DNA of 64,000 nt from Eledone cirrhosa (lineage: Eukaryota), in the NCBI GenBank assembly GCA_964016885.1, contig OZ024760.1, forward strand, positions 5,704,001 through 5,768,000, given 5' to 3'. A program made the translations under genes and the position numbers. Below are positions 20,275 through 64,000 of this stretch, piece after piece. The notes under the pieces are model-generated. The model ran no database searches and was not told the origin of the DNA. It saw nothing but the letters and a program-made list of their open reading frames with translations. Positions within the stretch are counted from its first letter, which is position 1, and each line of letters begins with the position of its first letter.

Positions 20275-20380
20275 TACATGAGTGTGTGTATTACCCAATA
20301 GCTGACCTCCAACAGTTGTAAGAATGACAACAGTATGTGGCAGTAATCAGGTCAGAAGATGACAACAAAACACTTTAGGA

Positions 20381-22560
20381 GTTTATAGTACATAGCAACA
20401 ACACTATAGATAAATAGAACATCTAACAGTGTATAGAGACTATATAGTAGTGGGTGTGTTGTGGGACAGTTTATAGTACATAGCAACAACACTATAGATA
20501 AATAGAACATCTAACAGTGTATAGAGACTATATAGTAGTGGGTGTGTTGTGGGACAGTTTATAGTACATAGCAACACTATAGATAAATAGAACATCTAAC
20601 AGTGTATAGAGACTATATAGTAGTGGGTGTGTTGTGGGACAGTTTATAGTACATAGCAACAACACTATAGATAAATAGAACATCTAACAGTGTATAGAGA
20701 CTATATAATAGTGGGTGTGTTGTGGGACAGTTTATAGTACATAGCAACAACACTATAGATAAATAGAACATCTAACAGTGTATAGAGACTATATAGTAGT
20801 GGGTGTGTTGTGGGACAGTTTATAGTACATAGCAACACTATAGATAAATAGAACATCTAACAGTGTATAGAGACTATATAGTAGTGGGTGTGTTGTGGGA
20901 CAGTTTATAGTACATAGCAACAACACTATAGATAAATAGAACATCTAACAGTGTATAGAGACTATATAGTAGTGGGTGTGTTGTGGGACAGTTTATAGTA
21001 CATAGCAACACTATAGATAAATAGAACATCTAACAGTGTATAGAGACTATATAGTAGTGGGTGTGTTGTGGGACAGTTTATAGTACATAGCAACAACACT
21101 ATAGATAAATAGAACATCTAACAGTGTATAGAGACTATATAGTAGTGGGTGTGTTGTGGGACAGTTTATAGTACATAGCAACAACACTATAGATAAATAG
21201 AACATCTAACAGTGTATAGAGACTATATAGTAGTGGGTGTGTTGTGGGACAGTTTATAGTACATAGCAACACTATAGATAAATAGAACATCTAACAGTGT
21301 ATAGAGACTATATAGTAGTGGGTGTGTTGTGGGACAGTTTATAGTACATAGCAACAACACTATAGATAAATAGAACATCTAACAGTGTATAGAGACTATA
21401 TAGTAGTGGGTGTGTTGTGGGACAGTTTATAGTACATAGCAACAACACTATAGATAAATAGAACATCTAACAGTGTATAGAGACTATATAGTAGTGGGTG
21501 TGTTGTGGGACAGTTTATAGTACATAGCAACACTATAGATAAATAGAACATCTAACAGTGTATAGAGACTATATAGTAGTGGGTGTGTTGTGGGACAGTT
21601 TATAGTACATAACAACAACACTATAGATAAATAGAACATCTAACAGTGTATAGAGACTATATAGTAGTGGGTGTGTTGTGGGACAGTTTATAGTACATAG
21701 CAACAACACTATAGATAAATAGAACATCTAACAGTGTATAGAGACTATATAGTAGTGGGTGTGTTGTGGGACAGTTTATAGTACATAGCAACACTATAGA
21801 TAAATAGAACATCTAACAGTGTATAGAGACTATATAGTAGTGGGTGTGTTGTGGGACAGTTTATAGTACATAGCAACACTATAGATAAATAGAACATCTA
21901 ACAGTGTATAGAGACTATATAGTAGTGGGTGTGTTGTGGGACAGTTTATAGTACATAGCAACAACACTATAGATAAATAGAACATCTAACAGTGTATAGA
22001 GACTATATAGTAGTGGGTGTGTTGTGGGACAGTTTATAGTACATAGCAACACTATAGATAAATAGAACATCTAACAGTGTATAGAGACTATATAGTAGTG
22101 GGTGTGTTGTGGGACAGTTTATAGTACATAGCAACAACACTATAGATAAATAGAACATCTAACAGTGTATAGAGACTATATAGTAGTGGGTGTGTTGTGG
22201 GACAGTTTATAGTACATAGCAACACTATAGATAAATAGAACATCTAACAGTGTATAGAGACTATATAGTAGTGGGTGTGTTGTGCGACAGTTTATAGTAC
22301 ATAGCAACAACACTATAGATAAATAGAACATCTAACAGTGTATAGAGACTATATAGTAGTGGGTGTGTTGTGGGACAGTTTATAGTACATAGCAACAACA
22401 CTATAGATAAATAGAACATCTAACAGTGTATAGAGACTATATAGTAGTGGGTGTGTTGTGGGACAGTTTATAGTACATAGCAACACTATAGATAAATAGA
22501 ACATATAGTAATGTGTGTGTGTTGTGGGACGGTTTATAGTACATGATAACAACACTATAG
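20381..22560. repeat. 88/85-bp tandem satellite, about 25 copies
   Basis: Unit GTTTATAGTACATAGCAA(CAA)CACTATAGATAAATAGAACATCTAACAGTGTATAGAGACTATATAGTAGTGGGTGTGTTGTGGGACA. Confidence 0.97.
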
Positions 22561-22817
22561 AAAGATAGCACATATAGTAATGTGTGTGCATATGTATATT
22601 GTGCTGTATGTATATGTTGTGGTATATAACAGCAACACTATGATAAACTATATAACAATTTGCGTTGAGTTGCGTTGCGTTGCGTTGCGTTGCGTTGCGT
22701 TGTGTGTGTGTTGTGGGATATTGTGGGTGGCAACTGTCACAATTGGAACACCTTTCACCATAGGGGTACTTTGTCAGAGCTGATCCTGGTATGGTGGGAT
22801 AGGATGGGGTAGGGTGA

Positions 22818-25654: not shown

Positions 25655-25790
25655 TCAGAATGGAGGCTGTAAAAATCAGTTAGACCATTACTCACCAGAG
25701 TACTCAATACTTGGGGTAGTAGAGTGGGTAATATGAAAAATTTGGGACCCCGACGGCTGAGCTCTGGCCATTTCAACAGCTAGATCTAAA

Positions 25791-25794
<4 letters not shown>
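25655..25794 (-). mobile_element. PLE-like terminal fragment of the same family as 10279-10421
   Basis: Reverse complement: GAAATGGC-CAGAGCTCA-GCCGTC-GGGGTC...TATTACCCACTCTACTACCCCAAGTATTGAGTAC; TA-flanked. Confidence 0.7.
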
Positions 25795-25830
<36 letters not shown>

Positions 25831-33010: not shown

Positions 33011-33624
33011 AAGAATGTTGGCAAGACAATGGCTGCCATAAAATGGTGTAATATTTTTGGTTTACAGAAAAATGTGTGAATTCTTTTTATACTCTTATGT
33101 TTTTATTTTTATATTTATTTTTAAATTTCATTTCATTAGTCATGAATGATTGATCAGTTTTATTGATACACTGGTTAAAGGTTGTGTTGTATATATTGAA
33201 TGTAATATAGCTGCAAGACTTCTGGACTCTTGGGAAATAGAAATGTTGATACTAACAAAATATAAATACATGCTATGATATAATGAATTTATTATTTGAT
33301 TCTGTCCTCTTCTATTAAGCAGGTCAGTTGGTCGTTTTGTTGCCATGATAAAAAGCACCCAGTCCACACTGTAAACGTGTGCACTTGTGTTTGTGCATGT
33401 CTGTATGTGTCTGTTTGTGCATGTGTTGGTGTGTGTTGGTGTGTTTCTGTGTTTGTTGATGTGTGTGTGTGTATGTGTGTGTACATAGCAGTGTTACAGA
33501 AGGGTCACTACCAGTTTGGTGACAAGCCCCACAGGCACAGAAATGTCAAACAGCTGGCAATATCGAAGATCCACACAGAGTGGTGAACCTGTGTAAACTC
33601 AGCCTGATTAGATGATACACTAAG

Positions 33625-36600
33625 AGAACTCTACACCAACACCACTCTACACCAACACCACTCTACACCAACAGAACTACACCAACACCACTCTACACCA
33701 ACACCATTCTACACCAACACGATTCAACACCAACACCACTCTACACCAATACTACCCTACCCCAACACCACTCTACACCAACACCACTCTACACCAACAC
33801 CACTCTACACCAACACTACCCTACCCCAACACCACTCTACACCAACAAAACTCTACACCAACAGAACTCTACACCAACACTACTCTACACCAACAAAACT
33901 CTACACCAACAGAACTCTACACCAACAGAACTCTACACCAACACTACTCTACACCAACACCATTCTACACCAACACTACTCTACACCAACACACCTCTAC
34001 ACCAACACTACCCTACCCCAACACCACTCCACACCAACACTACCCCAACACTACTCTACCCCAACACTACTCTACACCAACAGAACTCTACACCAACACA
34101 ACTCTACACCAACACTACTCTACACCAACACCACTCTACACCAACACCACTCTACACCAACACCACTCTACACCAACACTACTCTACACCAACAGAACTC
34201 TACACCAACACCACTCTACACCAACACCACTCTACACCAACACCACTCTACACCAACACCACTCTACACCAACACTACTCTACACCAACACTACTCTACA
34301 CCAACACTACTCTACACCAACACCACTCTACACCAACAGAACTCTACACCAACACCACTCTACACCAACACCACTCTACACCAACACAACTCTACACCAA
34401 CACTACCCTACCCCAACACCACTCCACACCAACACTACCCCAACACTACTCTACCCCAACACTACTCTACACCAACAGAACTCTACACCAACACAACTCT
34501 ACACCAACACAACTCTACACCAACACTACTCTACACCAACACCACTCTACACCAACACCACTCTACACCAACACCACTCTACACCAACACTACTCTACAC
34601 CAACACTACTCTACACCAACAGAACTCTACACCAACACCACTCTACACCAACACCACTCTACACCAACACCACTCTACACCAACACCACTCTACACCAAC
34701 ACTACTCTACACCAACACTACTCTACACCAACACCACTCTACACCAACACCACTCTACACCAACACCACTCTACACCAACACCACTCTACACCAACACCA
34801 CTCTACACCAACACCACTCTACACCAACACCACTCTACACCAACACCACTCTACACCAACACCACTCTACACCAACACCACTCTACACCAACACCACTCT
34901 ACACCAACACCACTCTACACCAACACCACTCTACACCAACACCACTCTACACCAACACCACTCTACACCAACACCACTCTACACCAACACCACTCTACAC
35001 CAACACCACTCTACACCAACACCACTCTACACCAACACTACTCTACACCAACACTACACTACACCAACACTACACTACACCACTCTACACCAACACCACT
35101 CTACACCAACACCACTCTACACCAACACTACTCTACACCAACACTACTCTACACCAACACCACTCTACACCAACACCACTCTACACCAACACCACTCTAC
35201 ACCAACACTACTCTACACCAACACCACTCTACACCAACACCACTCTACACCAACACCACTCTACACCAACACTACTCTACACCAACACTACTCTACACCA
35301 ACACTACTCTACACCAACACCACTCTACACCAACACCACTCTACACCAACACTACTCTACACCAACAGAACTCTACACCAACACCACTCTACACCAACAC
35401 CACTCTACACCAACACCACTCTACACCAACACCACTCTACACCAACACCACTCTACACCAACACCACTCTACACCAACACCACTCTACACCAACACCACT
35501 CTACACCAACACTACTCTACACCAACACTACACTACACCAACACTACACTACACCAACACCACTCTACACCAACACCACTCTACACCAACACCACTCTAC
35601 ACCAACACTACTCTACACCAACACTACTCTACACCAACACCACTCTACACCAACACTACTCTACACCAACACTACTCTACACCAACAGAACTCTACACCA
35701 ACACCACTCTACACCAACACCACTCTACACCAACACTACTCTACACCAACACTACTCTACACCAACACCACTCTACACCAACACCACTCTACACCAACAC
35801 CACTCTACACCAACACTACTCTACACCAACACTACACTACACCAACACCACTCTACACCAACACCACTCTACACCAACACTACTCTACACCAACACCACT
35901 CTACACCAACACCACTCTACACCAACACCACTCTACACCAACACCACTCTACACCAACACCACTCTACACCAACACCACTCTACACCAACACCACTCTAC
36001 ACCAACACCACTCTACACCAACACCACTCTACACCAACACTACTCTACACCAACACTACACTACACCAACACTACACTACACCAACACCACTCTACACCA
36101 ACACCACTCTACACCAACACCACTCTACACCAACACCACTCTACACCAACACCACTCTACACCAACAGAACTCTACAACAACACCACTCTACACCAACAG
36201 AACTCTACACCAACACCACTCTACACCAACACCACTCTACAACACCACTCTACACCAACACCACTATACACCAACAGAACTATACACCAACACCACTCCA
36301 CACCAACACTACTACACCAACAGAACTCTACATCAACAGAACTCTACACCAACACCACTCTACACCAACACTACTCTACACCAACACTACTCTACACCAA
36401 CACTACTCTACACCAACACCACTCTACACCAACACAACTCTACACCAACACCACTCTACACCAACACCACTCTACACCAACACCACTCTACACCAACACT
36501 ACTCTACACCAACACCACTCTACACCAACACCACTCTACACCAACACCACTCTACACCAACACCACTCTACAACACCACTCTACACCAACACCACTCTAC

Positions 36601-38205
36601 ACCAACACTACTCTACACCAACACTACTCTACACCAACACCACTCTACACCAACACTACCCTACCCCAACACCACTCTACACCAACACTACTCTACCCCC
36701 AACATTACTCTACACCAACAAAACTCTACACCAACAGAACTCTACACCACTCTACACCAACACTACTCTACACCAACAAAACTCTACACCAACAGAACTC
36801 TACACCAACACTACTCTACACCAACACCACTCTACACCAACACCACTCTACACCAACACTACTCTACACCAACAAAACTCTACACCAACACTACCCTACC
36901 CCAACACCACTCCACACCAACACTACCCCAACACCACTCTACACCAACACTACTCTACCCCAACAAAACTCTACACCAACAGAACTCTACACCAACAGAA
37001 CTCTACACCAACAGAACTCTACACCAACAGAACTCTACACCAACACAACTCTACACCAACACAACTCTACACCAACACTACTCTACACCAACACCACTCT
37101 ACACCAACACCACTCTACACTAACACCACTCTACACCAACACCACTCTACACCAACACTACTCTACACCAACACTACTCTACACCAACACTACTCTACAC
37201 CAACACCACTCTACACCAACACTACTCTACACCAACACCACTACACCACTCTACACCTGCACCACTCTACACCAACACCACTCTACACCAACACTACTCT
37301 ACACCAACACTACACTACACCAACACCACTCTACACCAACACCACTCTACACCAACAGAACTCTACACCAACACCACTCTACACCAACACCACTCTACAC
37401 CAACACCACTCTACACCAACAGAACTCTACAACAACACCACTCTACACCAACACCACTCTACACCAACAGAACTCTACAACACCACTCTACACCAACACC
37501 ACTCTACACCAACAGAACTCTACACCAACACCACTCCACACCAACACTACTACACCAACAGAACTCTACACCAACAGAACTCTACACCAACACCACTCTA
37601 CACCAACACCACTCTACACCAACACTACTCTACACCAACACCACTCTACACCAACACCACTCTACACCAACACTACTCTACACCAACACTACTCTACACC
37701 AACACCACTCTACACCAACAGAACTCTACAACAACACCACTCTACACCAACACCACTCTACACCAACAGAACTCTACAACACCACTCTACACCAACAGAA
37801 CTCTACACCAACACCACTATACACCAACAGAACTATACACCAACACCACTCCACACCAACAGAACTCTACACCAACAGAACTCTACACCAACAGAACTCT
37901 ACACCAACACCACTCTACACCAACAAAACTCTCCACCAACAGAACTCTCCACCAACAGAACTCTCCACCAACAGAACTCTACACCAACAGAACTCTACAC
38001 CAACACCACTCCACACCAACAAAACTCTCCACCAACAGAACTCTCCACCAACAGAACTCTACACCAACAGAACTCTACACCAACAGAACTCTACACCAAC
38101 AGAACTCTACACCAACAGAACTCTACACCACCAGAACTCTACACCAACAGAACTCTACACCAACACCACTCTACACCAACAGAACTCTACACCAACACCA
38201 CTCTA
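33625..38205. repeat. 16-bp minisatellite ACACCAACACCACTCT with variant units, about 4.6 kb
   Basis: Interspersed CAC/TAC/GAA/AAA variants. Confidence 0.97.
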
Positions 38206-38536
38206 AAGAATCACCACTTAACTACACCAACACTACTCAGCTACAGTAATAGCTCAACACATTACTATTATATATATAATAAGTGTTTTTTGATAACAAA
38301 TAACAAAGAAACTTGATACATAGATAAATAGATGTTGTATCAGGAAAGATTTTCTTTAAATATACAGATTAAACAATTTACACACTCTGCTATTATATAC
38401 ACACACAAAGTATGCTTATAGACACCCTCTCTGTATACACCTCTCTCTTATACACCTACTTATAGCATAAATAAGTGTGTATATACATATATCATCATCA
38501 TTTAATGGCCATCTTCCATGCTAGCACACACACACA

Positions 38537-40897: not shown

Positions 40898-41395
40898 AAT
40901 ATATATATATATACATAAATATATATATATATATATACATAAATATATATATATATATATATACATAAATATATATATATATATATACATAAATATATAT
41001 ATATACATAAATATATATATATATATATACACATAAATATATATATATATATATATACATAAATATATATATACAATATATATATATATATACATAAATA
41101 TATATATATATATATATATACAATATATATATATATATACATAAATATATAAAATATATAAATACATAAATATATATATATATATATATATACAATATAT
41201 ATATATACATAAATATATATATATATATATACATAAATATATATATATATACATAAATATATATATGCAAAGTTTTATTTAAATTGTTGGGTTACAACGA
41301 GTAAATATTTATAACTGATATAAAAGCACTCAACAAGTATTTGGAGTATATTTACGATATTAAATAAATGGAAACTATATTTATAAAACCATATT

Positions 41396-41461
41396 TATTT
41401 CATTATATATATTTCAGGGATATCATATTAAAAATATGGTATGCCTTCATCAGACAAAATA
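41396..41461 (-). ncRNA. Type-I hammerhead ribozyme
   Basis: Reverse complement of the 41599-41664 motif. Confidence 0.8.
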
Positions 41462-41598
41462 CAATATAAACAGTCTTATAAATAGATAGATTTGACATAC
41501 CTTACAACTTCAACTTCCATTTAAAAAGTTGATTTTTAAATGGAAGTTGAAGGTGTAAGGTATGTCAAATCTATCTATTTATAAGACTGTTTATATTG

Positions 41599-41664
41599 TA
41601 TTTTGTCTGATGAAGGCATACCATATTTTTAATATGATATCCCTGAAATATATATAATGAAATA
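41599..41664 (+). ncRNA. Type-I hammerhead ribozyme
   Basis: TATTTTGT-CTGATGA-[AGG...CATATT-TTT-AATATG...CCT]-GAAA-TATATA-TA-ATGAAATA. Confidence 0.8.
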
Positions 41665-42538
41665 AATATGGTTTTATAAATATAGTTTCCATTTATTTAA
41701 TATCGTACATAAATATATATATATTTATATATACATAAATATATATATATACATAAATATATATATACACATAAATATATATATATATATACATAAATAT
41801 ATATATACATATAAATATATATATATATACATAAATATATATATACACATAAATATATATATAACACCACTGATGATGTTGCAGATGTGCAACGAAAGAT
41901 TTATGTAAATTATGTAAACTATATATATATATATGTGTTTGTGTCTATATTGTATCTGTATTATTTTTGACCGCTGGTCAGTCAATGGCAACATTGAGGA
42001 CCGAGTAAGTTAGATCGCAGATATAAAAGACAGCGAGAAGCGAAAACCAACCAAACAGTGAGTGTGATCTGTTATTAATTCTGGCAATATTACGCAAATA
42101 TGACCCTCCCCAAGTATAAATATATATATATATACATAAATATATATATATACATAAATATATATACATAAATATATATATATATACATAAATATATATA
42201 TATATATTATATACATAAATATATATATATATATATATACATGAATATATATATATACATAAATATATATATATATACATGAATATATATATATACATGA
42301 ATATATATATATACATAAATATATATATATACATAAATATATATATATACATAAATATATATATATACATAAATATTTAAACATAAATATATATATATAC
42401 ATAAATATAATTATATATACATAAATATTTAAACATAAATATATATATATACATAAATATAATTATATATACATAAATAAATATATATATATACATAAAT
42501 ATAATTATATATACATAAATATATATATATATATATAC

Positions 42539-42576
<38 letters not shown>

Positions 42577-42698
42577 AGTTATATTTAAATTGTTGGGTTA
42601 CAACTAGTAAATATTTATAACTGATATAAAAGCACTCAAGTATTTGGAGTATATTTACGATATTAAATAAATGGAAACTATATTTATAAAACCATATT

Positions 42699-42764
42699 TA
42701 TTTCATTATATATATTTCAGGGATATCATATTAACAATATGTTATGCCTTCCTCAGACAAAATA
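42699..42764 (-). ncRNA. Type-I hammerhead ribozyme (CUGAGGA core variant)
   Basis: Reverse complement: TATTTTGT-CTGAGGA-stem II-GAAA-TATATA-TA-ATGAAATA. Confidence 0.8.
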
Positions 42765-43599
42765 CAATATAGACAGTTTTATAGATAAATAGATTTGACA
42801 TACCGTTCAACATCGACTTGTATTTGAAAAAGTTGATTTGGCAGTGAAAAATTGTAAACAGAAAGAAAGAAAGAGAGAAAGAAGGAAAGAAAGAAAGAAA
42901 ACGAAGAAAAAGAAGAAATGCATGCAACAAAATAGAGAGATGGAAAGATAGATAAAGAGAAGAACTTCATGTAAAGAAACAGAGAGATATATATATAGAG
43001 AGAGGAGATAGAGATAGATATATATAGAGAAAAGTAGGTAGTTGAACATCCGTTGGATGAACGTATCAATAATACATTTATTTATTTATTTATTTATTTA
43101 GCTCTAGTATTAATGTAAGGGAGATATATGTGGTTAGGAAAGAAACCAGCCGTTATATAGAGAGAAAAATGAAAAGTAACCAGACATAGGCGAGGCAGAA
43201 TTTAAAAACCCTATGTTTTAATGTAGAAATATTAGTTCGTTAAAAACCAGGCACTATAATGTAAATATCAGTATTCCTGAATGAGACATGTATCCATAAT
43301 GTGTGAAAAGTAATGATCTTATGTCTAGTTTTAAAAATTCATATGTTTATATGATAACTACAAACATCGATGTGAATTTACGTGATCAACTCTGCAAACC
43401 CCTATTTCACACGGAGAACATTCTCATTGTGCTATAAAAATTTAAGTATACATATATGTGTATATATACACATATATATAGAGTCTATATTCATTTTAAC
43501 AATACTATTCTTGTCTTTACTCTACATGATTATCTATCAAGCAGAAATAGAGAACAGATTTCAATATATTAATAAAAAATATCAGAAACAAAAACAAAA

Positions 43600-58544: not shown

Positions 58545-61007
58545 TTAATTAGGTTTATAATATTTAAATGTTTTTTTTAGTTTATGATTACACGATATAA
58601 TTAATTCCTGTCTTTTATTTAATAAGATATCCCTAGACTTCATTATTTCAAATAGTTCTTGGGAACATAATCTACATTCCTTTCTATTATTTTGATAAGG
58701 GGTGGCTCTTTTGAGCACACTCCAGGTCAAATCATATTTTATATTTTTATTTTTATAACTATTGATTTTTTCTGCTAGAGATGTTGTATTAGCCAGTGCG
58801 GCATTTTTAAAGCTATGTTTGTGGGTATTATACCTTGTCTTAAAATTGTTAGAGGTAGCTCCTATATATGAGCAAATAGAATCTTTAGTTTTAACATTAC
58901 ATTTATAGACTATGTTGTTAACAAGACAATTCCCTTTTAATGGGCAGTTTGTTTTGTTTCTACAGTTACATCCTTTCGTTAATTCTGTATTTGAGGAGAT
59001 ATTATTGTTAATTTGATGTACTGGTGGTATACTTATAGTTTTCTTACATTTATATGCATTATATGCACTTATATTTTGTTTTATGTTATTTGTTGTAGAA
59101 TATGAGAATTTAACTGTAGACCTATTTAAGATTTGATGGTATTTGTGGTTTGGCGGGAAGTTTTTCTCAAGGATATAAAAAAATTTTTTAGCAATATTAT
59201 CCTTAACTTGTAAATTAAAAGGAGCATTATACCAAGTAACTCGTCTATTACGGTTTCTATGTTGTTTATTATTTTTATTATTTTTATATGTTGTATCATG
59301 ATTTTTACTAGGAGGAATAATGTTAATGATCTCACCACAACTATTTTTAGTTATATTTGTAGATTTAGGTGTTTTATCTTTTTTATTAGGAGTTTTATTA
59401 TTAATATTTATTATAGTCTTATGATGAGTAGTTTTTTGAGGGTTACTATACTTTATATTAGAAGATTTAGTATTTTGGGGTATACTGTGGGTGGCATTTA
59501 GGTGTGTACCTTTCATTTGGTGTTTGTTGGTAATATTATGCTGTATGTTTTCAGTATTTTTAGTAGAAGTTATATACTCTAATCTATTTTTGTGGCCACT
59601 TCTATCTAGAGCTTCATTATAAAAGGTCGCATTTTTATCAAATACATCTTGGTTAGAAGAAAGGTTAGAAATTCTAAGTGATATATTATATGCAAGGTTT
59701 TTAAGGATAGATTTAGGGTGATTAGATTGTGAGTGTATGTAATGTAAGTTTTGGTTAGGTTTATGGTAAGGTTGGTATATACCCGTAGCTAAATCTAAAG
59801 TTATATCTAGGAAATTTACTACTTTACTTGTTTTTTCAAAAGTAATATTAAGATTATAATAGTCCTTAAGGAAAGTTCTAATATGCTTTTTGTTTTTTTC
59901 GATTTCTGAAAGGCTAAGGTTGTTAGAAAGAAGAAGACAGTCATCACGATATAAACCACCTTTGAGGTGGGGAAAAGAGGCATTTATGTTGAAAAGGAGA
60001 AAGAGGCCCACAAGATCAGTAATTTGGGCAGAATCGCTTGAACCCATAGTAATATCAAAAAGATTACTATAAGTGTTTCTGGTCCAGTATTCATTCTGAA
60101 ATTCAATAAGTGTTTGTCTAGCATGTGTAATAATGTTAATGTCATCCGAAGTTAAATTAGATCTATTTTTAGCAAATATTAATGCTTTGTTCAGGAGTAT
60201 GGGTGATATAGAAGAATAATAGTTATCTATATCAAACTGTAGGAAAGAAGCAGAAGATTTACACCTAATATTTTTAAACCAATTAATTACCTGGGAGGTG
60301 TTTTCCCAGAGTGGTAAAATAACGTATTTTCTTATTTGTGGGATGACTCTATCTAAAATTTTTTTGCTAATTATTCCAATATCTGATTTGGAGGGACATA
60401 TAAGTCTAATAGAAGGATTAGAGTTAAAGTTAGATTTGTGATCTTTCAGGTTGAAGTGTGGACTTCTCAATGCCAAAGGTTCAGTTCTATCTTCAATATT
60501 TAGTTTTTTTACTATGTTGTGTGTTTTGTTGTTGATATTGGTGAGTGACGCATTATTAGATTTTTTATAACTTTTTCTGAGTTCTTTATATATGAACTCA
60601 TTATAATGTTCAATATCCATATGATACAAGTTACCAGTTTTGTCCGAGTGGACATGGATTTTTTTAGACTTTTTTAGGTCCAATAGGGTAGAATCAAGGT
60701 CCTTTTGAAAGACGGATTTATACTTTTTAAATTTGAGATGTTTAATTAAATTAAAAAGGTCTTTCTCGAAGTCTTCAAGTAAAAAGTTGTGTGGTGGATT
60801 CTTGTAAGTGTTGAAATCATACATATATTTCCGATCTGCTTGTTTAGATTTTCTATCAAAGTGGTAGGCTCTCCATCTAACCCTTCTGATAAAATTATTA
60901 GTTTTCTGAATCATAAGGAGTAAGAAGTCGTCCTTAGAAGGTATTGGTATGTTTTTTAAGGAGGTTCCTAAATATTGTTTTTCCATTGTGATATGGATGA
61001 TGGACAA
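58545..61007 (-). CDS. PLE polyprotein: reverse transcriptase plus C-terminal GIY-YIG endonuclease (first ATG at 60986 gives 813 aa)
   Basis: SDKTGN, LKDHK, IRLICP, LQFDIDNYYSSI, ITMGSSDSAQITDL, GLYRDD, VNFLDITL and YIHSQSNHP RT motifs; CNCx5CPx3C linker; NIVY...YIG, R..TH, CRLC, LNKRQE...SCNH endonuclease motifs; no internal stops. Confidence 0.95.
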   Translation of the reverse strand: MSIIHITMEKQYLGTSLKNIPIPSKDDFLLLMIQKTNNFIRRVRWRAYHFDRKSKQADRKYMYDFNTYKNPPHNFLLEDFEKDLFNLIKHLKFKKYKSVFQKDLDSTLLDLKKSKKIHVHSDKTGNLYHMDIEHYNEFIYKELRKSYKKSNNASLTNINNKTHNIVKKLNIEDRTEPLALRSPHFNLKDHKSNFNSNPSIRLICPSKSDIGIISKKILDRVIPQIRKYVILPLWENTSQVINWFKNIRCKSSASFLQFDIDNYYSSISPILLNKALIFAKNRSNLTSDDINIITHARQTLIEFQNEYWTRNTYSNLFDITMGSSDSAQITDLVGLFLLFNINASFPHLKGGLYRDDCLLLSNNLSLSEIEKNKKHIRTFLKDYYNLNITFEKTSKVVNFLDITLDLATGIYQPYHKPNQNLHYIHSQSNHPKSILKNLAYNISLRISNLSSNQDVFDKNATFYNEALDRSGHKNRLEYITSTKNTENIQHNITNKHQMKGTHLNATHSIPQNTKSSNIKYSNPQKTTHHKTIININNKTPNKKDKTPKSTNITKNSCGEIINIIPPSKNHDTTYKNNKNNKQHRNRNRRVTWYNAPFNLQVKDNIAKKFFYILEKNFPPNHKYHQILNRSTVKFSYSTTNNIKQNISAYNAYKCKKTISIPPVHQINNNISSNTELTKGCNCRNKTNCPLKGNCLVNNIVYKCNVKTKDSICSYIGATSNNFKTRYNTHKHSFKNAALANTTSLAEKINSYKNKNIKYDLTWSVLKRATPYQNNRKECRLCSQELFEIMKSRDILLNKRQELIISCNHKLKKTFKYYKPN

Positions 61008-63079
61008 TTGAAAAAGCTCAACTAAATGTATATGGGTTTACAAAATCATACATATATATATGTATATACATAAATATAAAATTAATACACACATACAGTA
61101 CAAAAATACGAATATTTCCGTGAAAATAGGAGCAAAATTATGTAGATAAATCTACCAAGAGTTTACGGTAGTGTCCAATCCGTATGAAGAACTCAATGTA
61201 AAGACAGGAATTAATTATATCGTGTAATCATAAACTAAAAAAAACATTTAAATATTATAAACCTAATTAATAACATTATTCTAGAATTTAATTTAATTTA
61301 AATGTTAGTTAACCTATAAATTTAATTTAATTAATATTTTATTACAGATGAGAAAATATTATGTAATCATTAATTTTGAAAAACCTTTAAATATTACTAA
61401 TATATATTCAGTAATTTAATTTATAGATTAATTTTAACTTATTTTAACCTTTTATTATAATTTTTTAATTTAGTTTAACCTTTTATTATAAAATTTTTTT
61501 TATTATAATTCTTTTACAGATAAAATATAACAAAATAATATCATGTATCCTATGACGGAGAAAGAATTTTTAGTATTATTGACCTAATTAATATACATTT
61601 TGGAAATATATTTATTATTTGGTTTTAGCTTTAATCAACCTAAAACTTTAATTTTAATTTTAATTTGCTTAAAATTAGTATCCTTGTACAGACGAATTGC
61701 AGAATTTCATGTAATCATAGAATGGGAGGTGTTTTTGGATATATACCTAGTTAATATATTCTGTGCAAATTTTTTGAAAAAGATATGTATATCTATATGT
61801 ATATGTATATGTGTGTATTGTATGTGTATCTGTATGTATATTTATGTGACTATATATGTATGTATGTGTGTATATATATGTATATATATATATATATATA
61901 TGTGTATGTATATGTATATGTATGTGTATGTGTATGTATATGTATGTGTATGCGTATTAATTTTGATTTTTATTTGCATATAATTATATTATGCTATTGA
62001 TGAAATACAATATCTGCTTTATGTATTGTATACCTAATTAACATATACTAATTAACATATACTATTGAAATAAATATATAATTTTTAACTTAGTTAACAT
62101 ATAATTTATATGCTACTACCGATGTAATACTTTATTTTATTTTTATTTGGGTTTCTTTTCCCTATTATTAACTTTAATTTAGTTATAATGTAATTAATAA
62201 TCTACTACTGTTTGACTTCATAATTCTGCTTCAAATATTATAAACCTAACTAATTTACACCTTGGAAATCAATATGTTGACTATCTTTGGTTTAGTTGAC
62301 ATATGATTAATGGTATACTTTTTTATTTTGTGATGCATAGATTTCGTATTTCCTAGCATTGAAAATATGTAAGAACATACATTGAATTAAGATATGGAAA
62401 ATATTATAGGTTTCTTGAAACATATATTTACTTTGATCCCCTTCTCCAAACCCCCCCCTTTCCCCCATACTATTATCATCTGTTTTTGTAAGTGTATATG
62501 TATGAATATATGGGTAGATGGGTGTCTATATAGTTTTTTTGGTATTTATTTCTAGATATAAAAATACATATATGAGCATGTAAATATGAATGTAAGATTG
62601 AGTGTGTATATATGATTGTACATACATATGTATGTATATGTATGTATATATATGTATTATATATGTACGTATATGTGAATGTGTGGTATATATATGTGTA
62701 GGTATATGTATATATGTGTGCGTATGTGTATGCTTGTATATAGGAATATATATGTGTGTATATATGTATATATGTATATGCGTGTTTGCATGTATGTGTA
62801 TATGGGTTCTGTATATATTTGTATGTCTCTCTATTTATATGTTTATCTTCGTATCTATGTGATATATGTGTGTGTGTGTGCATGTATGCATATGTATGTG
62901 TTTGTGTGTGTTTGTATGTGTGTGTGTATATATATGTATGTATTTGCGCACACTCACATACACATATATATATATATATATATATATATGTGAGTGTGTA
63001 TGTGTGTCTGTATGTGTGTGCGTGTGTATATATGTGTATATATATATATATGTGTATGTATGTGTATGTGTGTGTATAT

Positions 63080-63119
<40 letters not shown>

Positions 63120-63258
63120 ATATAGGTGTCTATGTGTGAATATATGTCTTTATTCGTATGTGTGTATTTATATATGTTTATATTTAGGTGTATGTATGTA
63201 TGTGTATGTATGTATGTATATGTATGTGTATGTATGTATATGTGTATATGTGTGTATA

Positions 63259-63289
<31 letters not shown>

Positions 63290-63525
63290 TATTCTTTATT
63301 ATTATTGTAATATAACTTATGTGTATATGTGTATAAGTGAGGTTGTGTATGTATATATACTATGTGTATATATAAGGGTAATGAAATGTATATATATATA
63401 TATATATATATATATGTGCATGTCTGTATTTTATGTGTGTGTGTATATATATATATATATGTGTATGTGTGTATATATGTGTGTATATATGCATATATGT
63501 GTACGTGTGTGTATGTTTATATATA

Positions 63526-63557
<32 letters not shown>

Positions 63558-63672
63558 CATCTGGATGTTTGTATGTGTTTTCATGGTGGTATGAGTGTGG
63601 GATATATATGTTTATGTATAAGTATATGTATGTGTATGTATATATATATGAGTCTATGTGTGTGTGTGTATA

Positions 63673-63719
<47 letters not shown>

Positions 63720-64000
63720 ATGTGTGTATGTGTTGCGCGTGTGTGTGTCCGTATTTTTATCTTTTTATATGTGTATGTGTATGTTCGTGTAAATGTATGT
63801 GTGTGTATGACAGTATAGGTATGTGTGTATGTATGTATGTGTAGATATCTCTATGTGCGCGTACATGTACGTATGTGTATGTATATCTGTATGCGTATGT
63901 ACATTATATTATATGTAATATATTTTATTGTTTTTATTTTTTTATTTTTCATAATTTATAGATACATTTATATTAGGCTGTCTGGTCTGACAACCTAATA

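What the first reader, a model, noticed from the sequence alone, without database searches (positions are those of the whole stretch)
61142..61200. Shared TTGAG(T) motif in element tails marks the 5' boundary of the full-length copy
Seen: GTATTGAGTAC (10365, 25700 reverse, 48111), TACATTGAGTTC (50306 reverse), ATACTTGAGTGC (42632 reverse) and TTGAGTGC (41326 reverse) lie 41-59 nt from the 3' end of otherwise unrelated tails; TACATTGAGC also occurs at 9771. The full-length element begins exactly at TACATTGAGTTC (61200), and the solo tail at 2912 begins just after the TTGAG core. Inference: a cross-family cis-element, such as an initiator/transcription start or an RT template-jump site, defines both the RNA 5' end and the tail.
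Basis: partly seen in the sequence, partly recalled or inferred. Interest (0 to 1): 0.7.

Follow-up and report, generated by a model that had tools for sequence, protein, structure and literature searches.

The report
Twin hairpins mark Penelope copy ends
The shared TTGAG(T) word is one strand of a small bulged hairpin that occurs twice in Hydra-type Penelope jumping genes across many animals, and most inserted copies end about five bases before one of the two hairpins, which likely tell the element's reverse transcriptase where to start copying.

Summary
The motif is real, but it is not a linear promoter word. It is the 3' strand of a bulged hairpin: RCTC-[inner stem-loop]-2-nt bulge-GAGY-RC. 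The window's full-length element (55123-61200, minus strand) is a Hydra-clade Penelope-like retrotransposon, and 61200 is its junction with an inverted partner copy. Among 91 related loci (69 families), the hairpin occurs in 56 of 63 5' regions, and twice in 36 of 63 (shuffles 3.5 and 0.16). Its inner pairs covary (30/32, 23/30, 20/23). One hairpin follows the hammerhead; the second precedes the ATG. They track copy 3' ends, not 5' ends. All 5 testable window ends stop 4-5 nt before a hairpin, as do 22 of 34 automated end calls elsewhere (1-7 nt). Tail-less ends stop before hairpin 1 and tailed ends before hairpin 2. 5' junctions are scattered (4 of 18 near a hairpin), so the initiator/start-site reading is not supported. 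Most likely these are two docking sites that position internal reverse-transcription initiation, matching the two start sites shown in vitro for an anole Penelope element. The function is inferred; ten literature searches found no description of the twin hairpin.

The parts
61189..61200 (-).
   Evidence: complete hairpin seen in sister copy 50388-50308
61139..61200 (-). Tail segment as it lies in the 5' UTR of the full-length copy; the tailed end of the sister copy stops at 61139, 5 nt before hairpin 2
61016..61133 (-). Hairpin 2: GCTC-CTA ... TAG-TT-GAGC with a 108-nt insert, 33 nt before the ATG
   Evidence: in the MFE; not in the centroid
61022..61096 (-). Candidate 75-nt GT..AG intron inside the loop of hairpin 2 (untested)
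58545..60986 (-). Intact 813-aa RT + C-terminal GIY-YIG ORF of the Hydra clade (RWR, DKT, YRDD, CxCX5C, CxxC, CxH; no CCHH)
55123..61200 (-). Full-length copy, 6.1 kb, with a 3.4-kb microsatellite-rich 3' UTR; tail-less 3' end 4 nt before hairpin 1
55180..55325 (-). Type I hammerhead-like motif with a long stem II (CTGAAGA ... GAAA, palindromic stem III); read by eye, activity untested
61200..64000 (+). Inverted 5'-truncated partner copy, 99.93% identical, runs off the window; predicted to end with the tail
50257..52180 (-). Older sister copy with hammerhead, complete hairpin 1 (50388-50308, 71-nt insert) and tail
52181..55122 (+). Inverted partner of the older copy; breaks off in an internal (TA)n, so its end class is undetermined
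10209..10422 (+). Family A head-to-head mini-insertion: hairpin 1 at 10350-10373, tailed right arm, left arm ending 5 nt before the hairpin
25655..25803 (-). Family A second copy, hairpin 1 at 25725-25702
48035..48163 (+). Family B hammerhead, hairpin 1 (48101-48119) and tail
45412..45927 (-). Family B inverted arm (99.4% over 527 nt), ending 5 nt before hairpin 1
2913..2955 (+). Family B solo tail starting 2-3 nt after GAGT
41266..41706 (.). Family D head-to-head insertion: tailed minus arm with hairpin 1 (41347-41328); plus arm ending 5 nt before it
42574..42770 (-). Family D second copy; inner stem of the hairpin deleted (42650-42634)
9163..9244 (-). Family F hairpin 1 (9244-9220, TA bulge) plus tail, head-to-head with a hammerhead-bearing arm at 9279-9422
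9771..9780 (+). 3'-strand look-alike without the 5' arm; inconclusive

Best explanation
The TTGAG(T) word is the 3' strand of a conserved bulged hairpin that occurs twice in the terminal region of Hydra-clade Penelope-like elements, and the two hairpins likely act on the element's RNA as docking sites that make its reverse transcriptase start copying about 5 nt upstream of each one. Shown: the order hammerhead, 46-70 nt, hairpin 1, 55-83 nt, hairpin 2, ATG. Also shown: the covarying 4-bp + 2-nt bulge + 3-bp core, tail-less ends just before hairpin 1, tailed ends just before hairpin 2, and a TA dinucleotide peak at -6/-5. Inferred: the RT-endonuclease protein binds each hairpin, the endonuclease nicks (TA)n, and the nicked end pairs with the UA patch 5' of the hairpin to prime synthesis. 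Starts at hairpin 2 give the tail and starts at hairpin 1 omit it, so the tail is the spacer between the two starts. Also inferred: using both sites, on opposite target strands, gives head-to-head pairs with one tailed and one tail-less arm. Position 61200 is where a long cDNA stopped inside the upstream copy of hairpin 1 and was joined to its partner.
For: Conservation: at least one hairpin in 56 of 63 5' regions and two in 36 of 63; 200 shuffles gave means 3.5 and 0.16 (max 9 and 1); ORF interiors 2/60 and 0/60. Covariation, with anchoring blind to the inner stem and one hairpin per family and class: hairpin 1 inner pairs Watson-Crick in 30/32, 23/30, 20/23 against permutation means 15.9, 10.3, 7.9 (0 of 10000 reached); hairpin 2 in 34/38, 18/36, 12/18 (201, 7 and 3 of 10000). 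Only the 2-nt 3'-bulge register fits. On a 32-family tree (median 48% aa identity), inner pair 1 changes 8 times per side with 9 pair-level changes. The outer pair is G-C in 65 of 70 outside hairpins but A-T in all five window hairpin-1 families. A model built from 12 outside hairpins ranks five window tail sites as its top 5 hits, E 0.0013-0.53. Ends: window 5, 5, 4, 5 and 5 nt before a hairpin, 5 of 5. Elsewhere 22 of 34 automated end calls fall 1-7 nt before one, against 11.6% of positions or 26.3% of TA/AT positions (binomial 3e-6; the 22 come from 14 families by my count). Head-to-head pairs have one tailed and one tail-less arm in 8 of 9 (read by eye). Precedent: the anole element PAc initiates at two internal RNA sites that bound the tail (PMC11167929, main text).
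Against: No binding or priming assay exists for any Hydra element. The folds are marginal: z-scores -0.14 to -2.42, and in A, B and F the MFE with the tail attached prefers other pairings. RNA versus DNA strand is weakly resolved: G-U 13 against A-C 7 over four inner pairs (7 against 1 for hairpin 1). 12 of the 34 end calls miss. By inspection 5 used another family as reference, 4 had references lacking hairpin 2, 1 was an upstream arm and 1 overshot; L022 is a true exception, as is L032. One inverted pair in L083 is tail-less on both arms. [quoted passage not shown] The model missed both long-loop hairpins of the full-length family. Families A, B, D and F have no ORF here, so their clade is inferred.
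Confidence: 0.65

Rival explanations
1. The hairpins are read as DNA (single-stranded cDNA or cruciform). The GIY-YIG endonuclease recognises them and nicks at the TA about 5 nt upstream, trimming tandem intermediates into tailed or tail-less ends.
For: TA peak at -6/-5 before both hairpins, 14/29 and 17/37. Several 5' junctions have (TA)n directly before a hairpin: L085, L055, L027, L005 and window 9244. The D. virilis tail was required for endonuclease recognition of a plasmid (as cited in PMC11167929; original not read). Craig et al. ascribe the tail to endonuclease-mediated resolution.
Against: In PAc the tail is bounded by RT start sites on an RNA template. An asymmetric bulge with free loop length (6-24 nt, up to 108 nt here) suits a single strand rather than duplex DNA. 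Wobbles lean to the sense strand.
Confidence: 0.2
2. One reading: a linear initiator or transcription start that sets the RNA 5' end, and so the 5' boundary of full-length copies.
For: The full-length copy starts at 61200 inside the motif. 4 of 9 mapped 5' junctions lie near a hairpin start. Penelope promoters lie in the pseudo-LTR (PMC2377424).
Against: Compensatory pairing with an upstream arm; two copies per element; 14 of 18 informative 5' regions start elsewhere. At 61200 the copy begins in mid-hairpin, with no upstream element sequence. The D. virilis 34-bp repeat is not required for normal initiation.
Confidence: 0.05
3. The hairpins are mainly RT stall or template-jump sites that set 5' junctions; the 3'-end pattern follows from TA microhomology alone.
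For: 5' junctions at 61200, 2913, 9244 and F2 (by eye), and in L085, L055, L009 and L027, lie in or beside a hairpin.
Against: Only 26% of TA/AT positions lie in the windows that hold 22 of 34 ends. Purifying selection on a stall site is hard to explain. This is better seen as a side effect of bound protein.
Confidence: 0.07
4. The hairpins serve translation, export or cis-packaging of the RNA, and the ends track them only indirectly.
For: Hairpin 2 sits about 20-40 nt before the ATG in most families and prefers a C-G first inner pair, 35 of 37.
Against: Hairpin 1 has the same core far from the ATG, and both show the same offset to copy ends.
Confidence: 0.03

Closest known systems
Hydra clade of Penelope-like elements (Craig et al. 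2021, PMC8557442; passages, section 11, supplement parts 1, 2, 23, 52, 53 seen)
   Same: Protein motifs, C-terminal GIY-YIG, type I hammerhead, (TA)n targets, inverted 5'-truncated partner, one-sided tail. By eye the published consensi carry the hairpin: both copies at the 5' end of Hydra-1_Ajap, one near the 3' end of Hydra-2_Amil and of Hydra-2_Ajap, looser forms in Hydra-1_Obim, Hydra-1_Crog and Hydra-1_Amil.
   Different: The passages read do not mention the hairpins, and they attribute the tail to endonuclease resolution. This element is 6.1 kb, against generally under 3 kb. Its tail is about 135 nt counted from the tail-less end, against 30-40 bp quoted for Penelope-like elements.
PAc (Poseidon_Ac) two-site internal RT initiation (Frangieh et al. 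2024, PMC11167929; main text and start of Methods read, supplementary figures not available as text)
   Same: Two internal start sites downstream of the hammerhead, with the tail between them; AT-rich target; both strands nicked and extended; predicted dimer.
   Different: A different clade. PAc starts are described inside an AC-rich stem loop within the ORF. No cross-family structural consensus, twin hairpin or fixed offset is reported in the text read. Whether PAc has an equivalent hairpin was not tested.
D. virilis Penelope 34-bp repeat and pseudo-LTR promoter (Schostak et al. 2008, PMC2377424; passages and Discussion read)
   Same: [quoted passage not shown]
   Different: Treated as a DNA promoter feature and not required for normal initiation; no hairpin is described in the passages read.
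Telomerase RNA template-positioning stems (recalled, no call)
   Same: A protein-bound stem next to a short template patch that pairs with a repeat primer; Penelope RTs are the sister group of TERT (abstract).
   Different: The telomerase boundary stem lies 5' of the template and stops synthesis. Here the hairpin lies 3' of the start and synthesis continues for kilobases. An analogy only.

Membership tests
Hydra clade PLE (full-length element) | Single ORF, RT plus C-terminal GIY-YIG | tested here: met
   813-aa ORF with YRDD and VY..YIG motifs; 67 homologues at E<=1e-10, many carrying PF26215; the Pfam scan of the query itself returned nothing
Hydra clade PLE (full-length element) | RWK-type and DKT motifs | tested here: met
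   RWR and DKT; RWK is the majority in alignment A1
Hydra clade PLE (full-length element) | CxCX5C linker, CxxC and CxH, no CCHH inside the GIY-YIG core | tested here: met
   CNCRNKTNC, CRLC, CNH; definition; absence of CCHH judged from the Cys/His list
Hydra clade PLE (full-length element) | Canonical type I hammerhead | tested here: inconclusive
   Core and stems read by eye at 55180-55325 with a stem II of about 130 nt; missed by the short-spacer scan and not among the 150 Rfam rows shown; cleavage untested
Hydra clade PLE (full-length element) | (TA)n insertion site | tested here: met
Hydra clade PLE (full-length element) | Generally under 3 kb | tested here: not met
   6.1 kb; a tendency, not a strict criterion
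Hydra clade PLE (full-length element) | Placement in the published PLE phylogeny | not tested
   Reference proteins lie in a paper supplement and were not entered into tools
Hydra clade PLE (window families A, B, D, F) | Diagnostic ORF | not testable with these tools
   No ORF in these fragments and no genome held; assigned by hairpin, hammerhead core and (TA)n only
RT-initiation signal of the PAc type | Copy ends fall at two adjacent sites that bound the tail | tested here: met
RT-initiation signal of the PAc type | Initiation and protein binding shown in vitro | not testable with these tools
   needs biochemistry
Core-promoter initiator | Linear motif fixed at the transcript 5' end | tested here: inconclusive
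   No RNA run listed; indirect evidence is against it
Rfam RNA families | Match to a curated model | tested here: not met
   0 matches at E<=1 in 6 loci carrying both hairpins

The most novel reading that the evidence does not exclude
A dimeric Penelope RT-endonuclease docks on two tandem bulged hairpins of one RNA. Each subunit primes from one nicked strand of a (TA)n target on a short UA patch, much as telomerase positions its template, and the two cDNAs are joined head to head. One 20-nt RNA code would then explain the one-sided tail, the inverted partner and the clustered 5' junctions, and would give a portable 'start here' tag. Slippage on the UA patch might also lengthen the (TA)n runs.
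Probability: 0.3. Interest if true: 0.85.

Novelty: new variant of a known kind. Interest (0 to 1): 0.62.

Why it matters
How Penelope-like reverse transcriptases, the sister group of telomerase, choose their internal start sites, and why insertions carry a tail at one end only, is open. The one in vitro system shows two starts but gives no recognition rule. A twin hairpin with strong covariation across dozens of families and a fixed offset of about 5 nt supplies a specific, mutable candidate. It predicts copy boundaries for annotation, gives a way to find non-coding passengers of these elements, and makes a two-primer model directly testable.

Tried and rejected
No genome is held for this window, so the genome-wide motif survey could not be run. 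A single-sequence metagenome scan found no relatives and a viral-contig scan found none; the alignment query worked. The Rfam scan of the window showed only microsatellite and fold-back matches to miRNA models among the 150 of 385 rows displayed. Pfam and PDB sequence search returned nothing. No RNA holder was listed; this is no evidence either way. Laying four runs on 50236-50760 was uninformative on termini, because reads were cut at the repeat; it showed depth about ten times higher over 50272-50631 than upstream in X1 and X2. The reverse-complement control (32/63) is not independent, since a hairpin is self-complementary. The pair count (98.1% of cells paired, 0/500 shuffles) is on a model-fitted alignment and is treated as secondary. 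Pooled permutations were replaced by within-class ones. A look-alike in Naiad_Mmer lies about 400 nt from the 3' end and was not counted; other Naiad/Chlamys hits appeared to lie in coding sequence. An assembly fold-back at 61200 was rejected: the duplicated 'flank' is the element's own 3' UTR, present in the older copies at about 91% identity. The second 5'-junction survey (10 starts, 3 of them cross-family artefacts, 2 near a hairpin, 17 long) also showed no fixed 5' boundary. Ten literature searches found no description of the twin hairpin. The library lacks most subscription papers and Repbase notes, and the PAc supplementary figures could not be read as text, so prior description is not excluded.

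Full report
Observation. The six tail sites belong to four families, not six. The bare hexamer is not enriched: 14 in the window against a mean of 41 in shuffled islands. No whole genome is held, and the host was not determined.

The element. The frame 61037-58545 (minus strand, Met at 60986, 813 aa) has RWR, DKT, YRDD, CxCX5C, a C-terminal GIY-YIG, CxxC and CxH. These are the features given for the Hydra clade of Penelope-like elements (PMC8557442, section 11). The copy runs 61200 to 55123 and includes a 3.4-kb microsatellite-rich 3' UTR. From 61200 onward lies an inverted 5'-truncated partner, 99.93% identical over 2801 nt, and an older insertion of the same design occupies 50257-55122. So 61200 is the inversion junction that is common in these elements, and it falls inside the motif.

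What the motif is. In each family an RCTC lies upstream and pairs with GAGY, closing an inner stem with a 2-nt 3' bulge. A descriptor scan gave 5 window hits against 0.13 in shuffles, and 8 against 0.98 when long loops are allowed. These include a fifth family (9244) and a second hairpin in the 5' UTR of the full-length copy (61133-61016). One of the 8 (43389) is not in a tail.

Related loci. They form 69 families. Of 63 regions upstream of an ORF start, 56 hold at least one hairpin and 36 hold two; shuffles gave 3.5 and 0.16, ORF interiors 2 and 0 of 60. Hairpin 1 lies 46-70 nt after the hammerhead core in 33 families, and hairpin 2 lies 55-83 nt further on in 37 references.

Covariation. With anchoring blind to the inner stem (97 of 111 GAGYDC sites had an upstream RCTC; 70 kept as family-unique), only the 2-nt 3'-bulge register pairs. 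Within-class permutations give hairpin 1 30/32, 23/30 and 20/23 Watson-Crick pairs, with 0 of 10000 permutations reaching them, and weaker support for hairpin 2 (34/38, 18/36, 12/18; 201, 7 and 3 of 10000). On a tree of 32 families the first inner pair changes 8 times per side with 9 pair-level changes. A covariance model built from 12 outside hairpins ranks the window's A, A', D, B and F sites first to fifth and the damaged D copy seventh; two weak hits fall elsewhere, and it misses the two long-loop hairpins. By eye, published Hydra consensi from coral and sea cucumber carry clear copies, and the octopus and sea louse consensi carry looser ones.

Which end it fixes. In the window, the tail-less ends of families A, B, C and D stop 5, 5, 4 and 5 nt before hairpin 1, and the tailed end of C stops 5 nt before hairpin 2 (TA microhomology blurs this by a few bases). 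In the loci, of 101 hammerhead-anchored queries 26 had no reference, 27 ran on, 10 hit a contig end, 4 outran their reference and 34 were called as ends. Of these, 22 lie 1-7 nt before a hairpin, against 11.6% of positions or 26.3% of TA/AT positions (P 3e-6, overstated because the 22 come from 14 families). Of the other 12, I judge 10 uninformative, 1 an overshoot and 1 (L022) a true exception; L032 is another. Head-to-head pairs have one tailed and one tail-less arm in 8 of 9 cases read by eye (window A, B, D, F; L021, L081, two in L083; exception in L083). The 9-of-10 figure counted F twice; 8 of 9 gives about 0.02 under coin-flip ends.

5' junctions. These are not fixed. Of 34 regions with a reference, 16 begin at a contig edge, 9 extend more than 400 nt upstream, 5 start 43-257 nt before hairpin 1 and 4 start near a hairpin. 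With 61200, 2913 and 9244, this suggests a modest excess, not a rule.

Mechanism. Purified PAc protein nicks and extends both strands of AT-rich DNA and starts at two internal RNA sites that bound the tail (PMC11167929). The simplest reading is that the two hairpins are the Hydra-clade recognition signals for those two starts. Protein binds a hairpin, the nicked (TA)n end pairs with the UA patch at -6/-5, and synthesis begins about 5 nt upstream. Hairpin 2 yields tailed copies and hairpin 1 tail-less ones; using both on opposite strands would give the one-of-each inverted pairs. Structure, order and end positions are shown. Binding, priming, dimer use and the RNA-versus-DNA question are inferred. 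The folds are weak alone and would need protein to stabilise them. The main rival is recognition of the same hairpins in DNA by the endonuclease (0.2). Transcript ends could not be tested.

What is known. The clade, the tail, inverted partners and two-site initiation are published. Ten searches and Rfam gave no twin bulged hairpin. Papers seen: PMC8557442 (passages, section 11, five supplement parts and one supplement search); PMC11167929 (parts 1-2 of 4 and passages; supplementary figures not readable); PMC2377424 (passages, Discussion); bioRxiv 10.64898/2026.07.22.740005 (part 1 of 5, passages); PMC7761336 and PMC7229834 (passages). An earlier unchecked note of this scan (e1-9578672, another genome) reports a similar stem-bulge-stem hairpin in Penelope tails. 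It came after my analysis and is not independent support; the lines shown mention neither a second hairpin nor the offset.

Verdict. New variant of a known kind; interest 0.62.

Noticed in passing
window:55123-58545: A 3.4-kb microsatellite-rich 3' UTR travels with the element (four copies in the window), making it about twice the usual Hydra length.
   Followed up: partly
window:61022-61096 (-): A 75-nt GT..AG candidate intron fills the loop of hairpin 2; its AG forms the hairpin's inner pairs, so splicing would break hairpin 2. This could favour retention of the intron in new copies. Untested.
   Followed up: partly
window:55180-55325 and about 50452-50600 (-): Hammerhead-like motif with a stem II of about 130 nt and a palindromic stem III; standard descriptors miss it.
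   Followed up: partly
window:44120-44797 (-): 3' part of a second, distinct Hydra-type ORF (CxCX5C, GIY-YIG); no hammerhead core or matching hairpin found downstream.
   Followed up: partly
window:4666-4832: Head-to-head fold-back between TA-rich flanks whose arms both pass a GCTC without a matching 3' strand; family unassigned.
   Followed up: partly
window:9095-10744: Nested cluster: two inverted copies of family F (96.7%) enclose the 9771 fragment and family A, all in (TA)n; probably one F insertion duplicated.
   Followed up: partly
window:41870-41897 (+): Isolated small hammerhead core between TA runs, with no hairpin found downstream.
   Followed up: no
L085:2383, L055 5' region, L027 5' region, L005 5' region, window:9244: (TA)n lies directly before a hairpin at 5' junctions or inside a tandem; could be microhomology joining, self-targeting or RT slippage.
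   Followed up: partly
L078-L091: Animal retrotransposon contigs sit inside bacterial genome bins of the genome collection, i.e. likely host contamination; one bin gave seven loci.
   Followed up: no
window:39940-40428, 20380-22647, 33530-38300: A LINE-like 3' fragment ending in (TA)n without the hairpin, an array with a unit of about 85-88 nt, and a 16-nt satellite array.
   Followed up: no
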